From the NCBI GenBank assembly GCA_963682135.1, contig OY821645.1:1216001-1280000 (forward strand): a DNA stretch of 64,000 bases, written 5' to 3'. The translations under genes were made by a program, and so were the position numbers. Shown piece by piece: positions 1 to 4,112 of this stretch. Within the stretch, counting starts at the first letter, position 1. Each line of letters starts with the position of its first letter. The notes beneath the pieces are model-generated. The model did no database searches. It had not been told where the DNA came from and saw only the letters and a list, made by a program, of their open reading frames with translations. Origin of the DNA: Methanothrix sp. Lineage in GTDB: Archaea > Halobacteriota > Methanosarcinia > Methanotrichales > Methanotrichaceae.

Positions 1-183
1 GTATGGGGCCACAGAAAAGACCTGGATGAGTACTTCACTGTAGAAGATGCCACTATGGAAGAGATTCGCGCCCTGGCTGCCAGCGGCGCATCTGCCGATG
101 ATGTAGCCAATCAGATTCAGAGAAAGTCCAGGATCGGCTCAGAGCTGATCAAGTACATCGCCAAGACTAAAATTACCGCCTGA
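1..183 (+). CDS. 3' end of DUF1699-family protein (5' part outside window)
   Basis: Frame 1 reads VWGHRKDLDEYFTVEDATMEEIRALAASG...KITA* with stop at 181-183; the VWGHRKD..EY motif is typical of Methanosarcinales DUF1699 proteins. Confidence 0.7.
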   Translation, partial: VWGHRKDLDEYFTVEDATMEEIRALAASGASADDVANQIQRKSRIGSELIKYIAKTKITA

Positions 184-276
184 GTCCGCAACTCTGTGCC
201 CGGCTCAGCTACCCCCCCCTAATTTATTATTTGTCGATTTTCTAGTCCTATATTTTTTTCGACCGCCAACTACAAA

Positions 277-300
277 TATCTATAACGATTATATAGATAG
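277..300 (+). promoter_or_regulatory. Putative archaeal TATA box within a near-palindrome upstream of the structured element
   Basis: tatctataacgattatatagatag; TTATATA lies about 30 nt before the first helix at 325. Confidence 0.5.
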
Positions 301-324
301 TTTGTCGCTTCGTGCCATTGAATA

Positions 325-735
325 GGGTGGCGGGTGTGCCGTGGGCTTAACGTATCCGATGATGCTCTGATGATGGAGATGCATGCCTTCGTGGCACTGC
401 ATTTGGCTACGGGCCTGTGAGGCTGTAAAACATCGGCGGGCTGAAAAAGTTGCGTGCTGTGACAGGTGCAGCAATCCGCCGGATCTCACGCTAATACACG
501 GTCGGGGGCACGAGTCGGCACAGGTAGAAGCCGAGGACGAGAGGGCGAGCAGCATGGCCCTGCGAGAAAGGGTTCCTATAAAACGGACGCTGTGCGAGAT
601 TCCAGCGCTAATGCCGCCTTCCACCCAGGCTAATTAAAGTCGAGCTTCGGGCAGGGTCAGGCCACCACCTCGCGGTGATTGGCTCCTCTGCAAGAGGGCG
701 CAGTGGATTATGCGCAGGCCCTGCCTGGGACTTGA
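325..735 (+). ncRNA. Candidate large structured non-coding RNA, family unassigned
   Basis: Many nested helices read by eye: 325-330/621-626, 339-343/497-501, 343-354/408-416, 379-387/393-402, 417-421/485-489, 434-439/476-481, 515-519/530-534, 542-546/557-561, 588-592/603-607, 649-658/717-726; TATA upstream, T-tract at 741-747; no credible CDS. Confidence 0.65.
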
Positions 736-888
736 TATCGCTTTTCTTGATCATTACTCTGAGCAGGATAGTATGTTCTCAACTTGAAGCGAAATCCTTT
801 TATCTCGGTAATTGACGTACAGTGTATTGGCGAAAGTCGATGGCCAAATTTCCCTCCTACATCCAATTGACTTTCTCCTCCCTCCTTC

Positions 889-1524
889 TTATCCATATTT
901 CAGGAACCTTAAATTTCCTCCAGCGTTTCTATGCCGATCTTCTTCACGGATCAGCTCATCTTCCACAGCCAGATTTCTGTTCACCCAGTAAAACCGGGAA
1001 AAGAGCAATCCCACAGTTGGGCAGTCGTCCGGCTCGTACCACTTCAGATAATCTTCGATATTATCAAAGTGGCTCGGTGCATCCGGATGGTATAAACCTT
1101 CCCAGGGCATGGGAGTGGGCGGCTTGGCGGTTACATCCATAGAAAGCAGTTCCCGGCACAGATAGAGGAGCATGTTGCTGATGTTATCCTCTCCTCCATA
1201 GGTTAGGTAGGCATTGGCGGTGACCACAACCTTTGCAGGTGCTGAGGAGCTGAGCCAGTATGATTGATCGTCGCCGAGGCATACGATGGGCTTACGCTTT
1301 CCGATCTCACTCATCTTGGGCTCGATCTCATCCCAGAGGGCTTCGCTGCCGCGATGCGTGAAAATCAGGTCTGATTGTTCCATGGACTTTATTGCTTCGT
1401 CCAGAAGGCCGGGCTGATCGTCCAGTCGCTGGGTGGAAAAGAGCCGCAGATCGAATCCGAGGCGCTTGCAGGCTTTGGCAATTATCTGCAGATATGAATT
1501 TCCAACAAGACAGGTGAGTTTCAT
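889..1524 (-). pseudogene. cobN: Cobaltochelatase CobN, N-terminal fragment only
   Basis: YLTYGGEDNISNML, PWEGLYHPDAP and VGLLFSRFYW are CobN/BchH N-terminal motifs; only 211 aa versus ~1200+ for full CobN; similarity appears to stop after EDELIR. Confidence 0.8.
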
Positions 1525-1627
1525 GATTGCTCCTTTTCGATCAAATATTCCTGATTTCTGCGCAGTTGTTTTAATTTAGTTGTATGTATTTTTAATCGTG
1601 TCATATCTCTTCCCTAAATTACAAAAT

Positions 1628-1646
1628 TAATACGTTCTTAGTATTA
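1628..1646. promoter_or_regulatory. Inverted repeat TAATAC-N7-GTATTA upstream of cobN, possible metal-regulator operator
   Basis: Perfect 6-bp inverted repeat in an AT-rich promoter; operator function is inference. Confidence 0.3.
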
Positions 1647-1804
1647 TCTTTTTTGATTTAAATGTTAAAAAAGAATAAAGCCTGATTCAGATTAGCGCTT
1701 TACGCCAGGAATGGACGAACACTGCACAATTCGCTGCAACGTTTAGATCGTCCGGACTTTCTTATTGCTTCATTATGGTTCTTTGGAGCCGCACACAAGG
1801 CGGC

Positions 1805-2914
1805 TCACCAGAACTCCTTTTTTCGGCGCAGGAATAGATAAACAAAGAACGGGACACCCAGGAAGGCAGTCATTATTCCCACCGGCAGAATCACGGGCGC
1901 CATTATGGTTCTCGCCACGGTGTCCGCAGCCAATAGCAGCAGTCCTCCTACCAGTGCAGAGGCAGGGAGCAAAAACCTGTGGTCCCCTCCGATCACCATG
2001 CGAGTGATATGCGGAGCGACAAGGCCGATGAAGCCGATGGTTCCCGTGAAGCAGATAACGCTCGCGGTGATGACTGAGACCAGTACCATGCAGATTACAC
2101 GCGTCTTCTCCACGTTAACTCCCAGGCTCTTAGCGGTTTCATCGCCTGTTCCCAAGGCATTGATATCCCAGGACTTGAGGAGAAGATAGGGGAAACTGGC
2201 AACGATAACGCCTGTTACGATCCAGACCTTATCCCAGGAAGATCTCCCTAATGAGCCCATCATCCAGAAGACCACCTCTTGCACCTGCTCGGCATGTCCT
2301 ACGTACTGCAAGAAGGATGTCATGGCCGAGAAGAGATACATGATGGCTATGCCTGCCAGGACCATTGTCTCCGGTGTGATGCCCTTGTACTTTGCCAGGC
2401 CATAAACACTCATGGAGGCGAGGAGGGTGAAGATGAAGGCGTTGCCGATGATGAGATACTCTCCTCCTACAAATCCTGCTCCCATAACTATAGCCAAAGC
2501 AGCACCAAATCCCGCTGCAGAAGCAATGCCCAGTGTGAATGGGCTGGCCAGGGGATTTTTGAGGATGCCCTGCATTACAGCTCCCGCAATGGCCAGACCG
2601 ATGCCACCCACAATAGCCAGAAGAATGCGGTGCAGACGCAGACCCCAGACGATTGTGTCCGAGAACCAGGTGGTCTCAAAGTGGCCGGGCAAGAACCTGG
2701 CTATGATGGTTTTGTAGACATCAAGAACGCTTATGTCAGCCGAACCTCGCGTGGCTGCATAGCCTGCCAATAGAATTATGCCAAAAATGAGAGATATGAG
2801 AAAGAGCATCTTCTTGCCGATGAACTTTTGATACTCTGCCCTCAGATCTGCTGTGGGATTATCCTTGGAATGCAAAGAAGACATTTGCTCACGCCTCTGG
2901 ATAGACAAAGACAC
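1805..2914 (-). CDS. FecCD/BtuC-family ABC transporter permease (cobalamin/iron complex); start may be 2884
   Basis: LAIAGAVMQGILKNPLASPFTLG, GDETAKSLGV and GTIGFIGLVAPH motifs. Confidence 0.93.
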   Translation of the reverse strand: MSLSIQRREQMSSLHSKDNPTADLRAEYQKFIGKKMLFLISLIFGIILLAGYAATRGSADISVLDVYKTIIARFLPGHFETTWFSDTIVWGLRLHRILLAIVGGIGLAIAGAVMQGILKNPLASPFTLGIASAAGFGAALAIVMGAGFVGGEYLIIGNAFIFTLLASMSVYGLAKYKGITPETMVLAGIAIMYLFSAMTSFLQYVGHAEQVQEVVFWMMGSLGRSSWDKVWIVTGVIVASFPYLLLKSWDINALGTGDETAKSLGVNVEKTRVICMVLVSVITASVICFTGTIGFIGLVAPHITRMVIGGDHRFLLPASALVGGLLLLAADTVARTIMAPVILPVGIMTAFLGVPFFVYLFLRRKKEFW

Positions 2915-4112
2915 CCCTATTTATTACATCGACCTTTGCACCCTGAAACTCGTCGAGATATTCCTGATATGCATTACGTGGGTTATAATCCAGGAATATC
3001 TCCGGCTGCAGCCATTTTCCTAAGTAGCCCATTCCCAGATAGAACCTCCCTCCGCCCTTGGTGCAGTCCCAGGTTATCATGTAAGCTTTCTTGTTTTTCA
3101 CGGCAACAGTTTGGTTCAATTCTGTCCGGGCGAGCATCTCGTCAACTAAAGCTTCCAGTGCGACGGTATCACTCAAATCTTTGTCTATTCCAGGACTGTC
3201 CTTGAGGTATTTATATCGCAGAATGATTTCCGGATTCCTCATGGCAACGGATTCCGGGTCAACCTGTTTGAATCCCTGCAATTCCGAGAAGATATTGTTC
3301 CCACCTGCTGCCACGAGAAGGGCATTATGGGCATGACCCGAGCCACAAGTGTAATAGGTCTGGCCGCCACCAAAGTCTGCCTCCAGATAGACCTTAGGCT
3401 TCTCACTGGAAGGAAGGGCTGATACTATATCCAGGTATTTGCCAAGCTTCTTCTCAAAGAACTGATTATATCTCTTTGCCTCATCATTTCTATCCAGTAG
3501 ATAGCCCATTTTGTTGATGATATCATTATATTGAGATATGTTTCCGGAATCCAGGCGGATCACGGTGATATTGGTATCCTTGAGATTCTGATCCAGGTCT
3601 TCCTGTTTGGGGCTGCTCATGTATGTTATGACAAGATCCGGCCTGACCTTGATCAAAGCCTCCCAATCGACCGAAGACGTTGGAGAGCCAATGTTTACTA
3701 GGCCCGCGCCATCCGTATAGAGGTCCCCGCAGCCCTGCTCCCTGCTCTGCACAACATACTTGCCGGCAGCAACGATCTTATCTGTGCAGTTGAGGGTGCG
3801 CAGTATCTCATAATCCTCTGTGGTCAATACAGCGATCCGCTCGATTGGCTTATAGAAGGCAATCTCACTTCCTGTCGAATCGTTGATCTTCCTGGGATAG
3901 CTCTCATGAATGAGCCTGATATTCTCAAGCTCTTCATGGCTGATCCTTCCGTCCTCAGAGACTTTTTCTGCTGCCTTCAATTCTTCTGCAGAGATCACTT
4001 TGTCGCCATTCGAATCCCCAGGAACAGAAACATCCTGATAGGCGGCTGCTAGCCCCAGAGAACTGAAAATGCAGAAAAGCAAAACCAAACCGTATATCAT
4101 CTTCATGCCCAT
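2889..4112 (-). CDS. ABC transporter substrate-binding protein (BtuF/FepB-like) with signal peptide and dockerin/EF-hand-like N-terminus
   Basis: Hydrophobic leader; GDSNGDKVISAEEL; PIERIAVL, WEALIKVRPDLVI, AGGNNIF, VDPESVAMRNPEII. Confidence 0.88.
   Translation of the reverse strand: MGMKMIYGLVLLFCIFSSLGLAAAYQDVSVPGDSNGDKVISAEELKAAEKVSEDGRISHEELENIRLIHESYPRKINDSTGSEIAFYKPIERIAVLTTEDYEILRTLNCTDKIVAAGKYVVQSREQGCGDLYTDGAGLVNIGSPTSSVDWEALIKVRPDLVITYMSSPKQEDLDQNLKDTNITVIRLDSGNISQYNDIINKMGYLLDRNDEAKRYNQFFEKKLGKYLDIVSALPSSEKPKVYLEADFGGGQTYYTCGSGHAHNALLVAAGGNNIFSELQGFKQVDPESVAMRNPEIILRYKYLKDSPGIDKDLSDTVALEALVDEMLARTELNQTVAVKNKKAYMITWDCTKGGGRFYLGMGYLGKWLQPEIFLDYNPRNAYQEYLDEFQGAKVDVINRGVFVYPEA

What the first reader, a model, noticed from the sequence alone, without database searches (positions are those of the whole stretch)
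325..735. Unassigned ~410-nt multi-domain structured RNA with its own promoter and terminator
Seen: a GC-rich block between an AT-rich TATA region (277-300) and a T-tract (741-747), with most of it pairing in nested helices. Domain 1 is closed by GGGUGG 325-330/CCACCC 621-626. It contains CCGUG/CACGG (339/497), a junction (343-354/408-416) carrying two hairpins, GUGAG/CUCAC enclosing CGGCGG/CCGCCG, and three more hairpins (515-534, 542-561, 588-607). Short motifs recur in the linkers: GCUAAU three times, UAAAAC twice, GCGAGA twice. Established: RNase P, SRP, tRNA and cobalamin riboswitch signature motifs are not visible. Inference: a stand-alone large ncRNA, possibly an RNP scaffold or ribozyme, of a family I cannot name.
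Basis: partly seen in the sequence, partly recalled or inferred. Interest (0 to 1): 0.85.

Follow-up and report, generated by a model that had tools for sequence, protein, structure and literature searches.

The report
New large structured archaeal RNA family
This is a gene for an intricately folded RNA of about 450 bases that codes for no protein, belongs to an undescribed multi-copy family seen only in one family of methane-producing archaea, and is present in environmental RNA libraries, so it is a strong candidate for a new functional RNA whose job is still unknown.

Summary
The finding holds. Window ~300-748 (+) is a stand-alone non-coding RNA gene. No Rfam family matches at E<=1, in the window or in 7 related loci. 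RNase P and SRP RNAs lie elsewhere in the genome.

It belongs to a multi-copy family. I aligned 47 full-length copies, mean identity 74%. A consensus fold of 133 pairs is 93.2% paired, against 37-41% when partners are slid. Fifty pairs change on both sides, against 18-28. A second set of 67 distinct metagenome sequences gives the same picture for the core.

Coding is excluded.

Contigs from four RNA libraries cover ~300-712.

A covariance model finds the family in 40 of 74 other genomes of the same family. It finds none in 76 genomes of four sister families, nor in 146 genomes of 25 other families of the phylum.

The RNA starts near 300, not 325.

A small hairpin-RNA-like gene follows 38 of the 47 copies.

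Function is unknown. A trans-acting folded RNA or RNP is most likely.

The parts
256..299 (+). Conserved upstream promoter-like stretch with two TATA-like words (272-285 and 289-296)
   Evidence: Similarity among paralogous copies begins about 45 nt before window 300 and not earlier. Which TATA-like word is used was not determined. The word at 272-285 fits a start near 300.
300..748 (+). The non-coding RNA gene: about 445 nt here, about 500-550 nt in most other copies
   Evidence: 47 full-length homologues. Consensus fold with covariation. No Rfam match. RNA-library contigs cover about 300-712. Not coding.
303..520 (+). 5' domain, closed by helix P1 (303-308 and 310-315 with 508-513 and 515-520)
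   Evidence: helices 1 and 3: 11 pairs, 6 of them with changes on both sides, 94.9% and 85.1% of cells paired.
335..504 (+). Helix P2 (335-336 and 338-343 with 497-504) enclosing a multi-helix junction (344-347/412-415, 351-354/408-411, 356-359/403-406)
   Evidence: helix 4: 99.5% paired, 2 pairs with double changes. Helices 5-7: 87-99% paired, 4 pairs with double changes.
365..378 (+). Short hairpin whose loop (between 373 and 375) is the site of a variable expansion in other copies
   Evidence: In alignment A1, 39 of 47 copies carry about 60-150 extra nt here and 3 carry a short extra hairpin. Five copies have none: the window copy, L006, L042, L043 and L045. Loose ends at 373 and 375 in the RNA contigs carry the expansion sequence (table 7).
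379..402 (+). Nearly invariant hairpin (379-387/393-402, one bulged base)
   Evidence: helix 10: 9 pairs, 97.9% paired. Many invariant columns.
416..490 (+). Long three-part arm (416-422/484-490, 434-439/476-481, 449-458/465-475)
   Evidence: helices 11-13: 23 pairs, 10 with changes on both sides. Independent metagenome set, helices 5-7: 23 pairs, 9 with double changes.
490..501 (+). Most conserved segment of the RNA (GCUAAUACACGG); its 3' half is the 3' strand of P2
   Evidence: GCUAAU at 490 is identical in 44 of 47 copies. Invariant columns. An 18-nt word built on it hits at least 120 metagenome stretches.
530..627 (+). Domain 3: stem 541-551/612-620 bearing three hairpins (557-560/570-573, 574-576/585-587, 588-594/602-607). 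The outer pairs 530-532/625-627 and 536-537/622-623 are weak.
   Evidence: Helix 16: 10 pairs, 6 with double changes, 88% paired. Helices 17-19: 95-98% paired. Helices 14 and 15: only 73.7% and 82.4% paired.
640..735 (+). 3' domain: long outer stem with three inner hairpins
   Evidence: helices 20-24: 36 pairs, 13 with double changes, 91.6-96.1% paired. Folding z = -4.59 with 0 of 200 shuffles, against -2.58 for the opposite strand.
739..750 (+). T-rich run, the likely archaeal termination site
   Evidence: Read directly. A T-rich stretch stands at the same place in the aligned copies. The 3' end itself was not mapped.
782..897 (+). Linked neighbour, 'element 2': a BRE/TATA-like word (about 790-806), then a hairpin (829-878) with a CCCUCC loop and a CCUCCCUCC-type tail
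   Evidence: Present 22-113 nt downstream of 38 of 47 full-length copies. 14 copies in the own genome. The 9-pair stem is kept in 37 of 37 aligned copies, with 1 pair showing double changes. Folding z = -3.51.
1..183 (+). 3' end of a DUF1699 gene. It is the upstream neighbour here but is probably not part of the RNA unit.
   Evidence: PF08004, E = 8.3e-56. Upstream of only 12 of 47 copies.

Best explanation
Window ~300-748 (+) is a stand-alone gene for a highly structured non-coding RNA. It has its own conserved promoter-like region and a T-rich end. It is one of two full-length copies in this genome. It is a 'minimal' member, lacking the expansion arm, of an undescribed multi-copy RNA family restricted, as far as searched, to part of one archaeal family.

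Shown: the family, the fold (three domains of nested helices kept by compensatory changes), the absence of a reading frame, the absence of any Rfam relative, and the presence of the sequence in RNA libraries.

Inferred: the RNA acts in trans as a folded RNA, most likely the scaffold of a ribonucleoprotein. I put this at about 45% within this explanation. Catalytic or ligand-binding RNA gets about 15%, and decoy or other roles the rest. The invariant bases lie in junctions and loops, while the helices drift by compensation. Several old paralogue lineages are kept side by side across species. No protein gene or downstream gene is constantly linked to the RNA. The constant partner is a small hairpin-RNA-like gene directly downstream, which may work with it.
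For: Family. There are 4 matches in the own genome. 24 of 61 genomes of the family have BLAST matches, including 15 of 15 in the own genus. 47 full-length copies have mean pairwise identity 74%, minimum 58%.

Fold. RNAalifold consensus. On A1 (47 sequences, 133 pairs), 93.2% of cells are paired, against 36.7-41.0% when partners are slid. 50 pairs have changes on both sides, against 18-28. 171 such cells, against 34-55. 0 of 500 shuffles reach any of the five measures. Independent sequences: the core model R1 matched 77 times in 76 of the 80 metagenome loci given to it. On the 67 distinct sequences, 97.2% of cells are paired against 26.8-46.1% slid, 12 pairs have double changes against 2-6, and 73 cells against 3-12.

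Not coding. The two ORFs of the window copy are open and in frame in 1 of 46 and 0 of 46 other copies. 736 of 869 pairwise gap runs are not multiples of three. Substitutions by column phase are 953, 1044 and 1054.

Not a known RNA. Rfam 15 gave 0 matches at E<=1 in window 1-3000 and in 7 other loci totalling 23,793 bases. The genome's RNase P RNA (216 bits) and SRP RNA (193.5 bits) lie elsewhere. ARAGORN finds nothing.

Strand. The + strand folds better in the 3' domain (-56.1 against -42.1 kcal/mol). Many kept pairs are G-U. The conserved upstream stretch is on the + side.

RNA libraries. Contigs of 4 of 4 runs laid (X1-X3 wetland, 2017; X5 sediment, 2022; 4 study codes) lie on about 300-712. 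140 to 1541 pieces were laid per run. Summed word depths reach up to 4.5e4, 5.5e5, 8.5e5 and 2.0e6. The tool warns that these sums mix organisms and are a poor measure of expression.

Old paralogues. The tree has several deep clades, each with copies from several genomes. One genome (G017) sits in at least 4 clades. Neighbour clustering shows several different synteny groups and no transposase or integrase.

Distribution. Model R1 hits 40 of 74 other genomes of the family and 0 of 76 in four sister families. It hits 0 of 150 other genomes at phylum level, 4 of them from this family and 146 from 25 other families.
Against: The whole-molecule folding energy is not better than shuffles (z = -0.91). 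Domain 3 (z = -0.66) and the 335-415 part (z = -0.99) are also unremarkable.

The consensus structure was derived from the same alignment on which it was counted. A4 was fitted to the model. The sequences are related. All three facts inflate 'cells paired' and the shuffle control. The slid controls and the double-change counts are the sounder measures.

Two outer helices of domain 3 are weak, at 73.7% and 82.4% paired.

Contigs cannot show transcript ends, strand or level. No start or end was mapped, and no cultured-strain RNA-seq was seen.

Truncated and internally deleted copies exist, and copy number varies from 1 to 6 core matches per genome. Both are also what a selfish repeat would show.

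No partner protein, ligand or target was identified, so the mechanism is inference only. The family was not found in 34 of 74 other genomes of the same family, for example 0 of 7 in genus g6 at 91-99% completeness. It is therefore not essential to the lineage.
Confidence: 0.8

Rival explanations
1. It is the RNA or DNA of a selfish repeat. This could be a non-autonomous mobile element, or the remnant of an integrated element that spreads as a cassette together with element 2 and sometimes DUF1699. Its structure would then serve mobility rather than the cell.
For: It is multi-copy with variable copy number: 1-6 core matches per genome and up to 15 BLAST pieces. There are 5'-truncated, 3'-only and internally deleted copies. 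Similarity between copies extends beyond the RNA, into the promoter stretch and element 2. In the window, a CobN gene fragment matching only profile positions 2-97 of 1090 ends exactly where element 2 ends, while a full cobN lies elsewhere. That suggests an insertion or rearrangement at the cassette border.
Against: No transposase, integrase or reverse transcriptase appears among the neighbour clusters of the 47 loci. No convincing terminal inverted or direct repeats flank the window cassette. blastn finds no match in 72,556 plasmid records or 50,697 phage records. The conserved 18-nt word is absent from the viral contig collection. The paralogue clades are old (down to 58% identity) and shared across species. 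Helices are maintained by compensatory change in all clades, which indicates selection on the folded RNA.
Confidence: 0.1
2. It is a very long cis-acting leader, a riboswitch-like sensor or attenuator, that controls read-through into what lies downstream: element 2 and beyond.
For: Element 2 follows on the same strand in 38 of 47 copies, at a nearly fixed distance of 22-39 nt in 35 of them. A T-rich run lies between the two, where an attenuator would sit.
Against: Element 2 has its own BRE/TATA-like word, and it occurs without the large RNA at most of its 14 sites in this genome. Protein genes further downstream differ between loci, and in the window the next gene is on the other strand. 9 of 47 copies have no element 2. 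No known riboswitch family matches.
Confidence: 0.05
3. It is a precursor or decoy. It would be processed into smaller RNAs, or it would soak up a protein or the neighbouring CCUCC-rich small RNA.
For: There are several paralogues per genome and large contig depths in RNA libraries. Both are features of sponge RNAs such as CsrB; that comparison is recalled, not tested. The RNA is tightly linked to element 2.
Against: No repeated short binding motif is conserved. Predicted duplexes between each large RNA and its own element 2 are no better than shuffles (median z = 0.21 over 37 pairs) and fall at inconsistent sites. The C/D-box-like words of the window copy are not conserved in the alignment.
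Confidence: 0.04
4. It is a protein-coding gene, either ORF 383-637 (+) or ORF 289-624 (-).
For: Both ORFs exist in the window copy, at 84 and 111 aa.
Against: They are open and in frame in 1 of 46 and 0 of 46 other copies. Most gap runs are not multiples of three. There is no three-base periodicity of substitution.
Confidence: 0.01

Closest known systems
OLE RNA and the other 'ornate large' bacterial RNAs (GOLLD, ROOL, raiA); their properties are recalled from the literature, not from a call
   Same: Several hundred nucleotides long, with many nested helices kept by covariation. Conserved bases lie in junctions. The lineage is restricted. Present in RNA libraries. No known biochemical function at discovery.
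   Different: This RNA is archaeal. It is multi-copy, with old paralogues and an optional expansion arm. It has its own promoter and is not inside an operon. No Rfam model of any of those families matches at E<=1, so the likeness is one of kind, not of descent.
Archaeal RNase P RNA (RF00373) and SRP RNA (RF01857)
   Same: Size class of 300-450 nt, multi-domain, stand-alone genes for RNP scaffolds.
   Different: Both are present elsewhere in this genome with strong scores and do not match here. Unlike them, this RNA is multi-copy and was not found in many genomes of its own family.
Guide or scaffold RNAs of mobile nucleases (omega RNAs of IscB/TnpB; HEARO, RF02033); properties recalled
   Same: Large, structured, multi-copy and lineage-patchy.
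   Different: Those RNAs lie next to the nuclease gene. No such gene is among the neighbours of the 47 loci, and there is no Rfam match.
Small archaeal regulatory RNAs with anti-Shine-Dalgarno words, as described in Methanosarcina (recalled, not looked up). This comparison concerns element 2 only.
   Same: A short hairpin RNA with exposed CCUCC-type words and its own promoter.
   Different: It has not been shown to be transcribed here. It is multi-copy (14 in this genome). It is tightly linked to the large RNA (38 of 47). It has no Rfam match.

Membership tests
Any Rfam 15 family (4227 models) | Covariance-model match | tested here: not met
   0 matches at E<=1 in window 1-3000 and in 7 related loci.
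Archaeal RNase P RNA (RF00373) | Model match, and being the genome's only such RNA | tested here: not met
   The genome's RNase P RNA lies at G000:C1:2973124-2973427 with 216.2 bits. There is no match in the finding.
Archaeal SRP RNA (RF01857) | Model match | tested here: not met
   SRP RNA lies at G000:C1:1929548-1929862 with 193.5 bits. There is no match in the finding.
tRNA / tmRNA | Cloverleaf or tRNA-like domain with a tag frame | tested here: not met
   ARAGORN finds 0 genes in window 1-1500.
Box C/D RNA or K-turn element | Conserved C (RUGAUGA) and D (CUGA) boxes able to form tandem G-A pairs | tested here: not met
   The window copy has GAUGAUG and CUGAUGA at 358-373. The alignment consensus there reads GAUAAUG, and the second word varies (CUGUUUGG, CUGUUGG, CUGAACG).
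Group II intron (ORF-less) | Domain V and D1-D4 models; location inside a host transcript | tested here: not met
   The group II intron models, which I recall to be part of Rfam, gave no match at E<=1. A promoter-like stretch is conserved directly upstream in all paralogues.
Riboswitch or cis-regulatory leader | A constant downstream gene under its control | tested here: not met
   Downstream protein genes differ between loci. In the window the next protein gene is on the opposite strand. Only the small element 2 is constant.
Riboswitch or cis-regulatory leader | Ligand-dependent structural switch | not testable with these tools
   Needs in-line probing or a reporter assay.
Insertion sequence, MITE or other mobile repeat | Terminal inverted repeats or target-site duplication | tested here: not met
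   Only short matches that I judge to be chance, around the window cassette. Checked in one locus only.
Insertion sequence, MITE or other mobile repeat | Associated transposase, integrase or reverse transcriptase; presence on plasmids or viruses | tested here: not met
   None among the neighbour clusters. No plasmid or phage match. 0 viral contigs carry the conserved word.
Protein-coding gene | Conserved open frame and codon-phased substitution | tested here: not met
   open in 1 of 46 and 0 of 46 copies; 736 of 869 gap runs out of frame; no periodicity.
Stand-alone structured ncRNA gene (generic) | Helices kept by compensatory changes | tested here: met
Stand-alone structured ncRNA gene (generic) | A discrete transcript with its own start and end | tested here: inconclusive
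   RNA-library contigs cover about 300-712, but contigs cannot show ends, strand or level.

The most novel reading that the evidence does not exclude
The large RNA is an archaeal counterpart of the bacterial 'ornate' RNAs. It would be the core of a new ribonucleoprotein particle, or a ribozyme, specific to this lineage of acetate-using methanogens. It would work as a two-RNA system with the CCUCC-rich small hairpin RNA encoded directly behind it, for instance acting on ribosome-binding sites or on the small ribosomal subunit.
Probability: 0.15. Interest if true: 0.95.

Novelty: categorically new. Interest (0 to 1): 0.8.

Why it matters
Large structured RNAs of unknown function are rare, and nearly all known examples are bacterial. 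Each one that has been solved revealed new biochemistry.

It has a well-supported fold, several conserved paralogues, an optional expansion arm and a constantly linked small RNA gene. Its sequence is found in wetland and sediment RNA libraries. That makes it directly testable by Northern blot, probing, pull-down and cryo-EM.

There is also a practical side. Because it is unannotated, it will be counted as 'unknown' in metatranscriptomes of methanogenic habitats. A model of it could serve for annotation and as a marker of this lineage.

Tried and rejected
K-turn or box C/D reading. The GAUGAUG and CUGAUGA words at 358-373 looked like C/D boxes, but they are not conserved. Dropped.

Pairing between the large RNA and its own element 2. 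RNAduplex on 37 pairs gave median z = 0.21 against mononucleotide shuffles, at inconsistent sites. Dropped.

Its repeated motifs are chance.

A raw scan of all column pairs for stacks, and mutual information with APC correction, were dominated by G+C-rich chance stacks and by relatedness. They were used only as leads.

Coding is rejected.

Plasmid and phage collections gave no match. The viral contig scan for the conserved 18-nt word gave 0.

DUF1699 as a partner. It lies upstream of only 12 of 47 copies. It has no significant match among PDB sequences, best E = 0.095. The AlphaFold model is confident, pLDDT 93.7 and pTM 0.85, from a 33-row alignment. Foldseek against the PDB found 0 matches at E<=0.001; the best, at E = 0.021 with TM about 0.3 and rmsd above 9 Å, were retroviral integrase cores, which I do not take as a fold assignment.

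Terminal repeats around the cassette: none convincing.

Parts of the laid stretch without cover. In one search the bins 200-280 had depth 0 in all four runs. The bins 740-1000 had 0 to 7.7. It is compatible with a transcript bounded at about 300 and about 740 but does not show it. No DNA run was laid beside these runs.

Rare joints in the RNA contigs. Skips 394-407 to 482-484 remove the long arm. Skips 506-522 to 634-639 remove domain 3. Back-joints run from 503-507 to 375. Their depths are 4-510, against 1e5-1e6 for the main contigs. They may be deletion variants, template switching at helix bases or assembly artefacts. I draw nothing from them.

Literature. Searches gave listings and abstract starts only. 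Passages were read from PMC4405575 and PMC10895765. None describes this RNA. The four 'DUF1699' papers, by their titles, concern human FAM83 and casein-kinase proteins, not this archaeal family. The library lacks most subscription journals, and supplements were closed, so a prior description elsewhere cannot be excluded.

No tool named the organism, and I did not try to identify unnamed records.
Full report
WHAT IS THERE

The region sits between the end of a DUF1699 gene (stop at window 183; PF08004, E = 8.3e-56) and a fragment of a CobN gene on the other strand (889-1524). From 301 to 750 the G+C content is 0.53-0.64. The flanks are at 0.36-0.45. A/T-rich TATA-like words stand at 272-296 and a T-rich run at 740-748. 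Rfam 15, searched with permissive filters at E<=1 over window 1-3000, gave no match on either strand. ARAGORN found nothing.

A FAMILY, NOT A SINGLETON

BLAST of 300-760 against the window's own genome found a second full-length diverged copy and partial copies. An nhmmer profile found two full copies and four partial ones. The core model found one copy in the 64-kb window.

Among 61 genomes of the same family, 24 had matches, including 15 of 15 in the own genus, with up to 15 matching pieces per genome. From the loci returned, and from 40 further regions fetched by coordinates, I extracted 47 full-length copies. Their mean pairwise identity is 74% and the minimum is 58%. They were aligned as A1.

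Similarity between paralogues starts about 45 nt upstream of window 300, in the TATA-like region, and not earlier. That is what a conserved promoter would give.

THE FOLD

RNAalifold on the alignment, projected onto the window copy, gives three parts.

The first is a 5' domain closed by P1 (303-315 with 508-520). It contains:
- P2 (335-343 with 497-504);
- a junction of three short helices;
- a short hairpin (365-378);
- a nearly invariant hairpin (379-402);
- a long three-part arm (416-490).

The second is domain 3 (530-627), a stem with three hairpins. The third is a 3' domain (640-735), a long stem with three inner hairpins.

Counted on A1, the 133 pairs give these figures:
- 93.2% of 6172 cells are standard pairs, against 36.7-41.0% when the 3' partners are slid by 1-3 columns;
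- 50 pairs have a change on both sides, against 18-28;
- 171 cells carry such a change, against 34-55;
- 0 of 500 shuffles reach any of the five measures.

Clear single cases: 339-501 is C-G in 32, U-A in 14 and U-G in 1 of 47 copies, and 454-469 is G-C in 29 and A-U in 17.

The weak spots are the two outermost helices of domain 3, at 73.7% and 82.4% paired.

There are caveats. The structure was predicted from this same alignment. The sequences are related. So the percentage paired and the shuffle test are generous. The slid controls and the double-change counts are the fairer measures.

As a second sample, an 18-nt word from the most conserved segment was scanned through the metagenome contigs. 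The core covariance model R1 was built from window 375-504 and its homologues. It matched 77 times in 76 of these 80 loci. On the 67 distinct sequences the core's 36 pairs are 97.2% paired, against 26.8-46.1% slid. 12 pairs have double changes against 2-6, and 73 cells against 3-12. That alignment is fitted to the model.

The thermodynamic signal alone is weak. For the whole molecule z = -0.91. The long arm gives -1.51, domain 3 gives -0.66 and 335-415 gives -0.99. Only the 3' domain is outstanding, at -4.59 with 0 of 200 shuffles. The evidence for structure is therefore comparative.

Right: the CCGUG/CACGG, GUGAG/CUCAC and CGGCGG/CCGCCG helices, the junction at 343-354/408-416 and the hairpin 588-607 are all part of the supported fold.

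Wrong: the proposed closing helix 325-330/621-626 and the hairpins 515-534 and 542-561 are peculiar to the window copy. Over the family they are 64.0% paired, and 441 of 500 shuffles do as well. Of the repeated short motifs only GCUAAU at 490 is conserved, in 44 of 47 copies. The rest are identical in 1 to 17 of 47. Because P1 uses 303-315, the RNA must start near 300, not 325.

NOT CODING

The two ORFs of the window copy are open and in frame in 1 of 46 and 0 of 46 other copies. 736 of 869 pairwise gap runs are not multiples of three. Substitutions are spread evenly over the three column phases, at 953, 1044 and 1054.

NOT A KNOWN RNA

Seven further loci, including expansion-bearing copies, gave no Rfam match at E<=1. 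The genome has its RNase P RNA and SRP RNA elsewhere. The C/D-box-like words of the window copy are not conserved.

Literature searches found no description of such an RNA (listings and abstract starts; passages). The library is incomplete and supplements were closed.

VARIATION WITHIN THE FAMILY

The loop of the hairpin at 365-378 is an expansion site. 39 of 47 copies carry about 60-150 extra nucleotides there, which themselves form hairpins. 3 copies carry a short extra hairpin. 5 copies, the window's among them, carry nothing. The window copy is thus a minimal form.

The tree of the 47 copies has several deep clades, each holding copies from several genomes. One genome appears in at least four clades. 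There are also recent within-genome pairs in the window's own clade.

ORFs around the 47 loci cluster into several different synteny groups. DUF1699 is in 11 loci by this clustering, or 12 by tblastn. Two further clusters, of 7 loci each, resemble by eye an MC1-type chromatin protein (upstream) and a Dabb-type protein (downstream); neither name was checked with a family search. No transposase or integrase appears.

Truncated and internally deleted copies exist too.

DISTRIBUTION

Model R1 hit 40 of 74 other genomes of the family: 31 of 34 in the own genus, 5 of 14 in g8 and 0 of 7 in g6. It hit 0 of 76 genomes in four sister families of the class. In a phylum-wide sample it hit 0 of 150 other genomes, 4 from this family and 146 from 25 other families.

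Weak hits in three further genera proved to be diverged, nearly full-length relatives, several of them again followed by element 2.

There is no match in the plasmid or phage collections. No viral contig carries the conserved word. These are samples: 'not found in those searched'.

IN RNA LIBRARIES

Sixteen of the 24 listed runs that hold part of window 200-1000 are on record as RNA. I laid four metatranscriptomes: three from wetlands (2017) and one from sediment (2022), under four study codes.

In all four, contigs lie on about 300-712. 140-1541 pieces were laid per run. Many are 99-100% alike, for example a 102-nt contig on 396-497 and a 182-nt contig on 481-662 with 0 and 2 differences. Summed word depths reach up to 4.5e4, 5.5e5, 8.5e5 and 2.0e6. 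Loose ends at 373 and 375 carry the expansion sequence, so expansion-bearing paralogues are in the same libraries.

The tool's warnings apply. Contigs show presence, not ends, strand or level, and the sums mix related organisms. My inference is that depths of this size in RNA libraries are unlikely to come from DNA carry-over.

THE NEIGHBOUR THAT TRAVELS WITH IT

Between 22 and 113 nt after the large RNA, 38 of 47 copies have a second conserved element, at window 782-897. It begins with a BRE/TATA-like word. About 25 nt further on comes a hairpin whose 9-pair stem is kept in all 37 aligned copies. One pair changes on both sides, in 6 copies. A CCCUCC word lies in the loop of most copies, and a nearly invariant CCUCCCUCC-type tail follows. 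The window hairpin has z = -3.51.

The element occurs 14 times in this genome, mostly without the large RNA. It looks like a small-RNA gene with anti-Shine-Dalgarno words, but transcription was not shown. Predicted pairing between the two RNAs is no better than chance.

WHAT IT MOST LIKELY IS AND DOES

Shown: a conserved, structured, non-coding, multi-copy RNA gene family with promoter-like upstream conservation, present in RNA libraries, and unrelated to any Rfam family.

Inferred: it acts in trans as a folded RNA. The reasons are these:
- the invariant bases are in junctions and loops, while the helices drift by compensation;
- several old paralogue lineages are kept across species;
- no downstream protein gene is constant.

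An RNP scaffold is the most economical reading. A catalytic or ligand-binding RNA cannot be excluded.

The main rival is a selfish repeat. In its favour are the copy-number variation, the truncated copies and the CobN gene fragment that ends exactly at the cassette border while a full cobN lies elsewhere. Against it are the lack of any mobility gene or terminal repeat, the absence from plasmids, phages and viral contigs, and structure-preserving evolution in every clade.

VERDICT

This is a new RNA family with no known relative and a directly testable structure, in an environmentally important lineage. Function is unknown.

Noticed in passing
window 782-897 (+); also 13 other sites in G000: A small hairpin-RNA-like gene ('element 2') with its own BRE/TATA-like word, a conserved 9-pair stem, a CCCUCC loop and a CCUCCCUCC-type tail. 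It follows 38 of 47 copies of the large RNA and occurs 14 times in this genome. It has no Rfam match. Transcription was not shown.
   Followed up: partly
L029 about 2020-2290 (+), and the same place in L005, L007-L009, L011, L012, L033; not present in the window: Beyond element 2, many loci share a third conserved stretch. It has another TATA-like word and a purine-rich GGAGGAG-type word that, by eye, is nearly complementary to the tail of element 2 (alignment). This could be a target or partner of element 2. It was not tested.
   Followed up: no
window 889-1524 (-): A CobN/Mg-chelatase fragment of 211 aa that covers only profile positions 2-97 of 1090. It ends where element 2 ends. The genome has one full cobN elsewhere, at G000:C1:887924-891184. 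This suggests that the cassette was inserted into, or replaced the rest of, a second cobN next to an ABC transporter with FecCD and Peripla_BP_2 domains.
   Followed up: partly
window 1-183 (+), whole gene L001:950-1384; five more in G000: DUF1699 is a small family: 216 representative clusters at E<=0.001 and six paralogues in this genome. The AlphaFold model is confident (pLDDT 93.7), an alpha/beta domain followed by three helices. It has no significant fold match in the PDB (best E = 0.021, TM about 0.3) and no significant sequence match. Nearly invariant positions are H23, F26 and G74.
   Followed up: partly
G000:C1:2887698-2887920 (+), 1962712-1962905 (-), 2126128-2126250 (-), 2582880-2582941 (-); L062, L064, L065: Partial copies of the large RNA: 3'-domain-only pieces, some still followed by element 2, and copies with clean internal deletions, for example profile 1-78 joined to 454-517 in L065. 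One remnant lies between a DUF1699 gene and an element 2.
   Followed up: partly
window 375-640, seen in RNA contigs of runs X1, X2, X3, X5: Rare contigs skip exactly the long arm (394-407 to 482-484) or domain 3 (506-522 to 634-639), and a few join 503-507 back to 375. Their depths are 4-510, against 1e5-1e6 for the main contigs. They may be deletion variants, template switching at helix bases or circular by-products. This is unresolved.
   Followed up: no
L061 about 1890-1960 (-), within the expansion arm: One paralogue has its expansion arm lengthened by about four tandem units of roughly 12 nt (alignment A1, columns 101-165).
   Followed up: no
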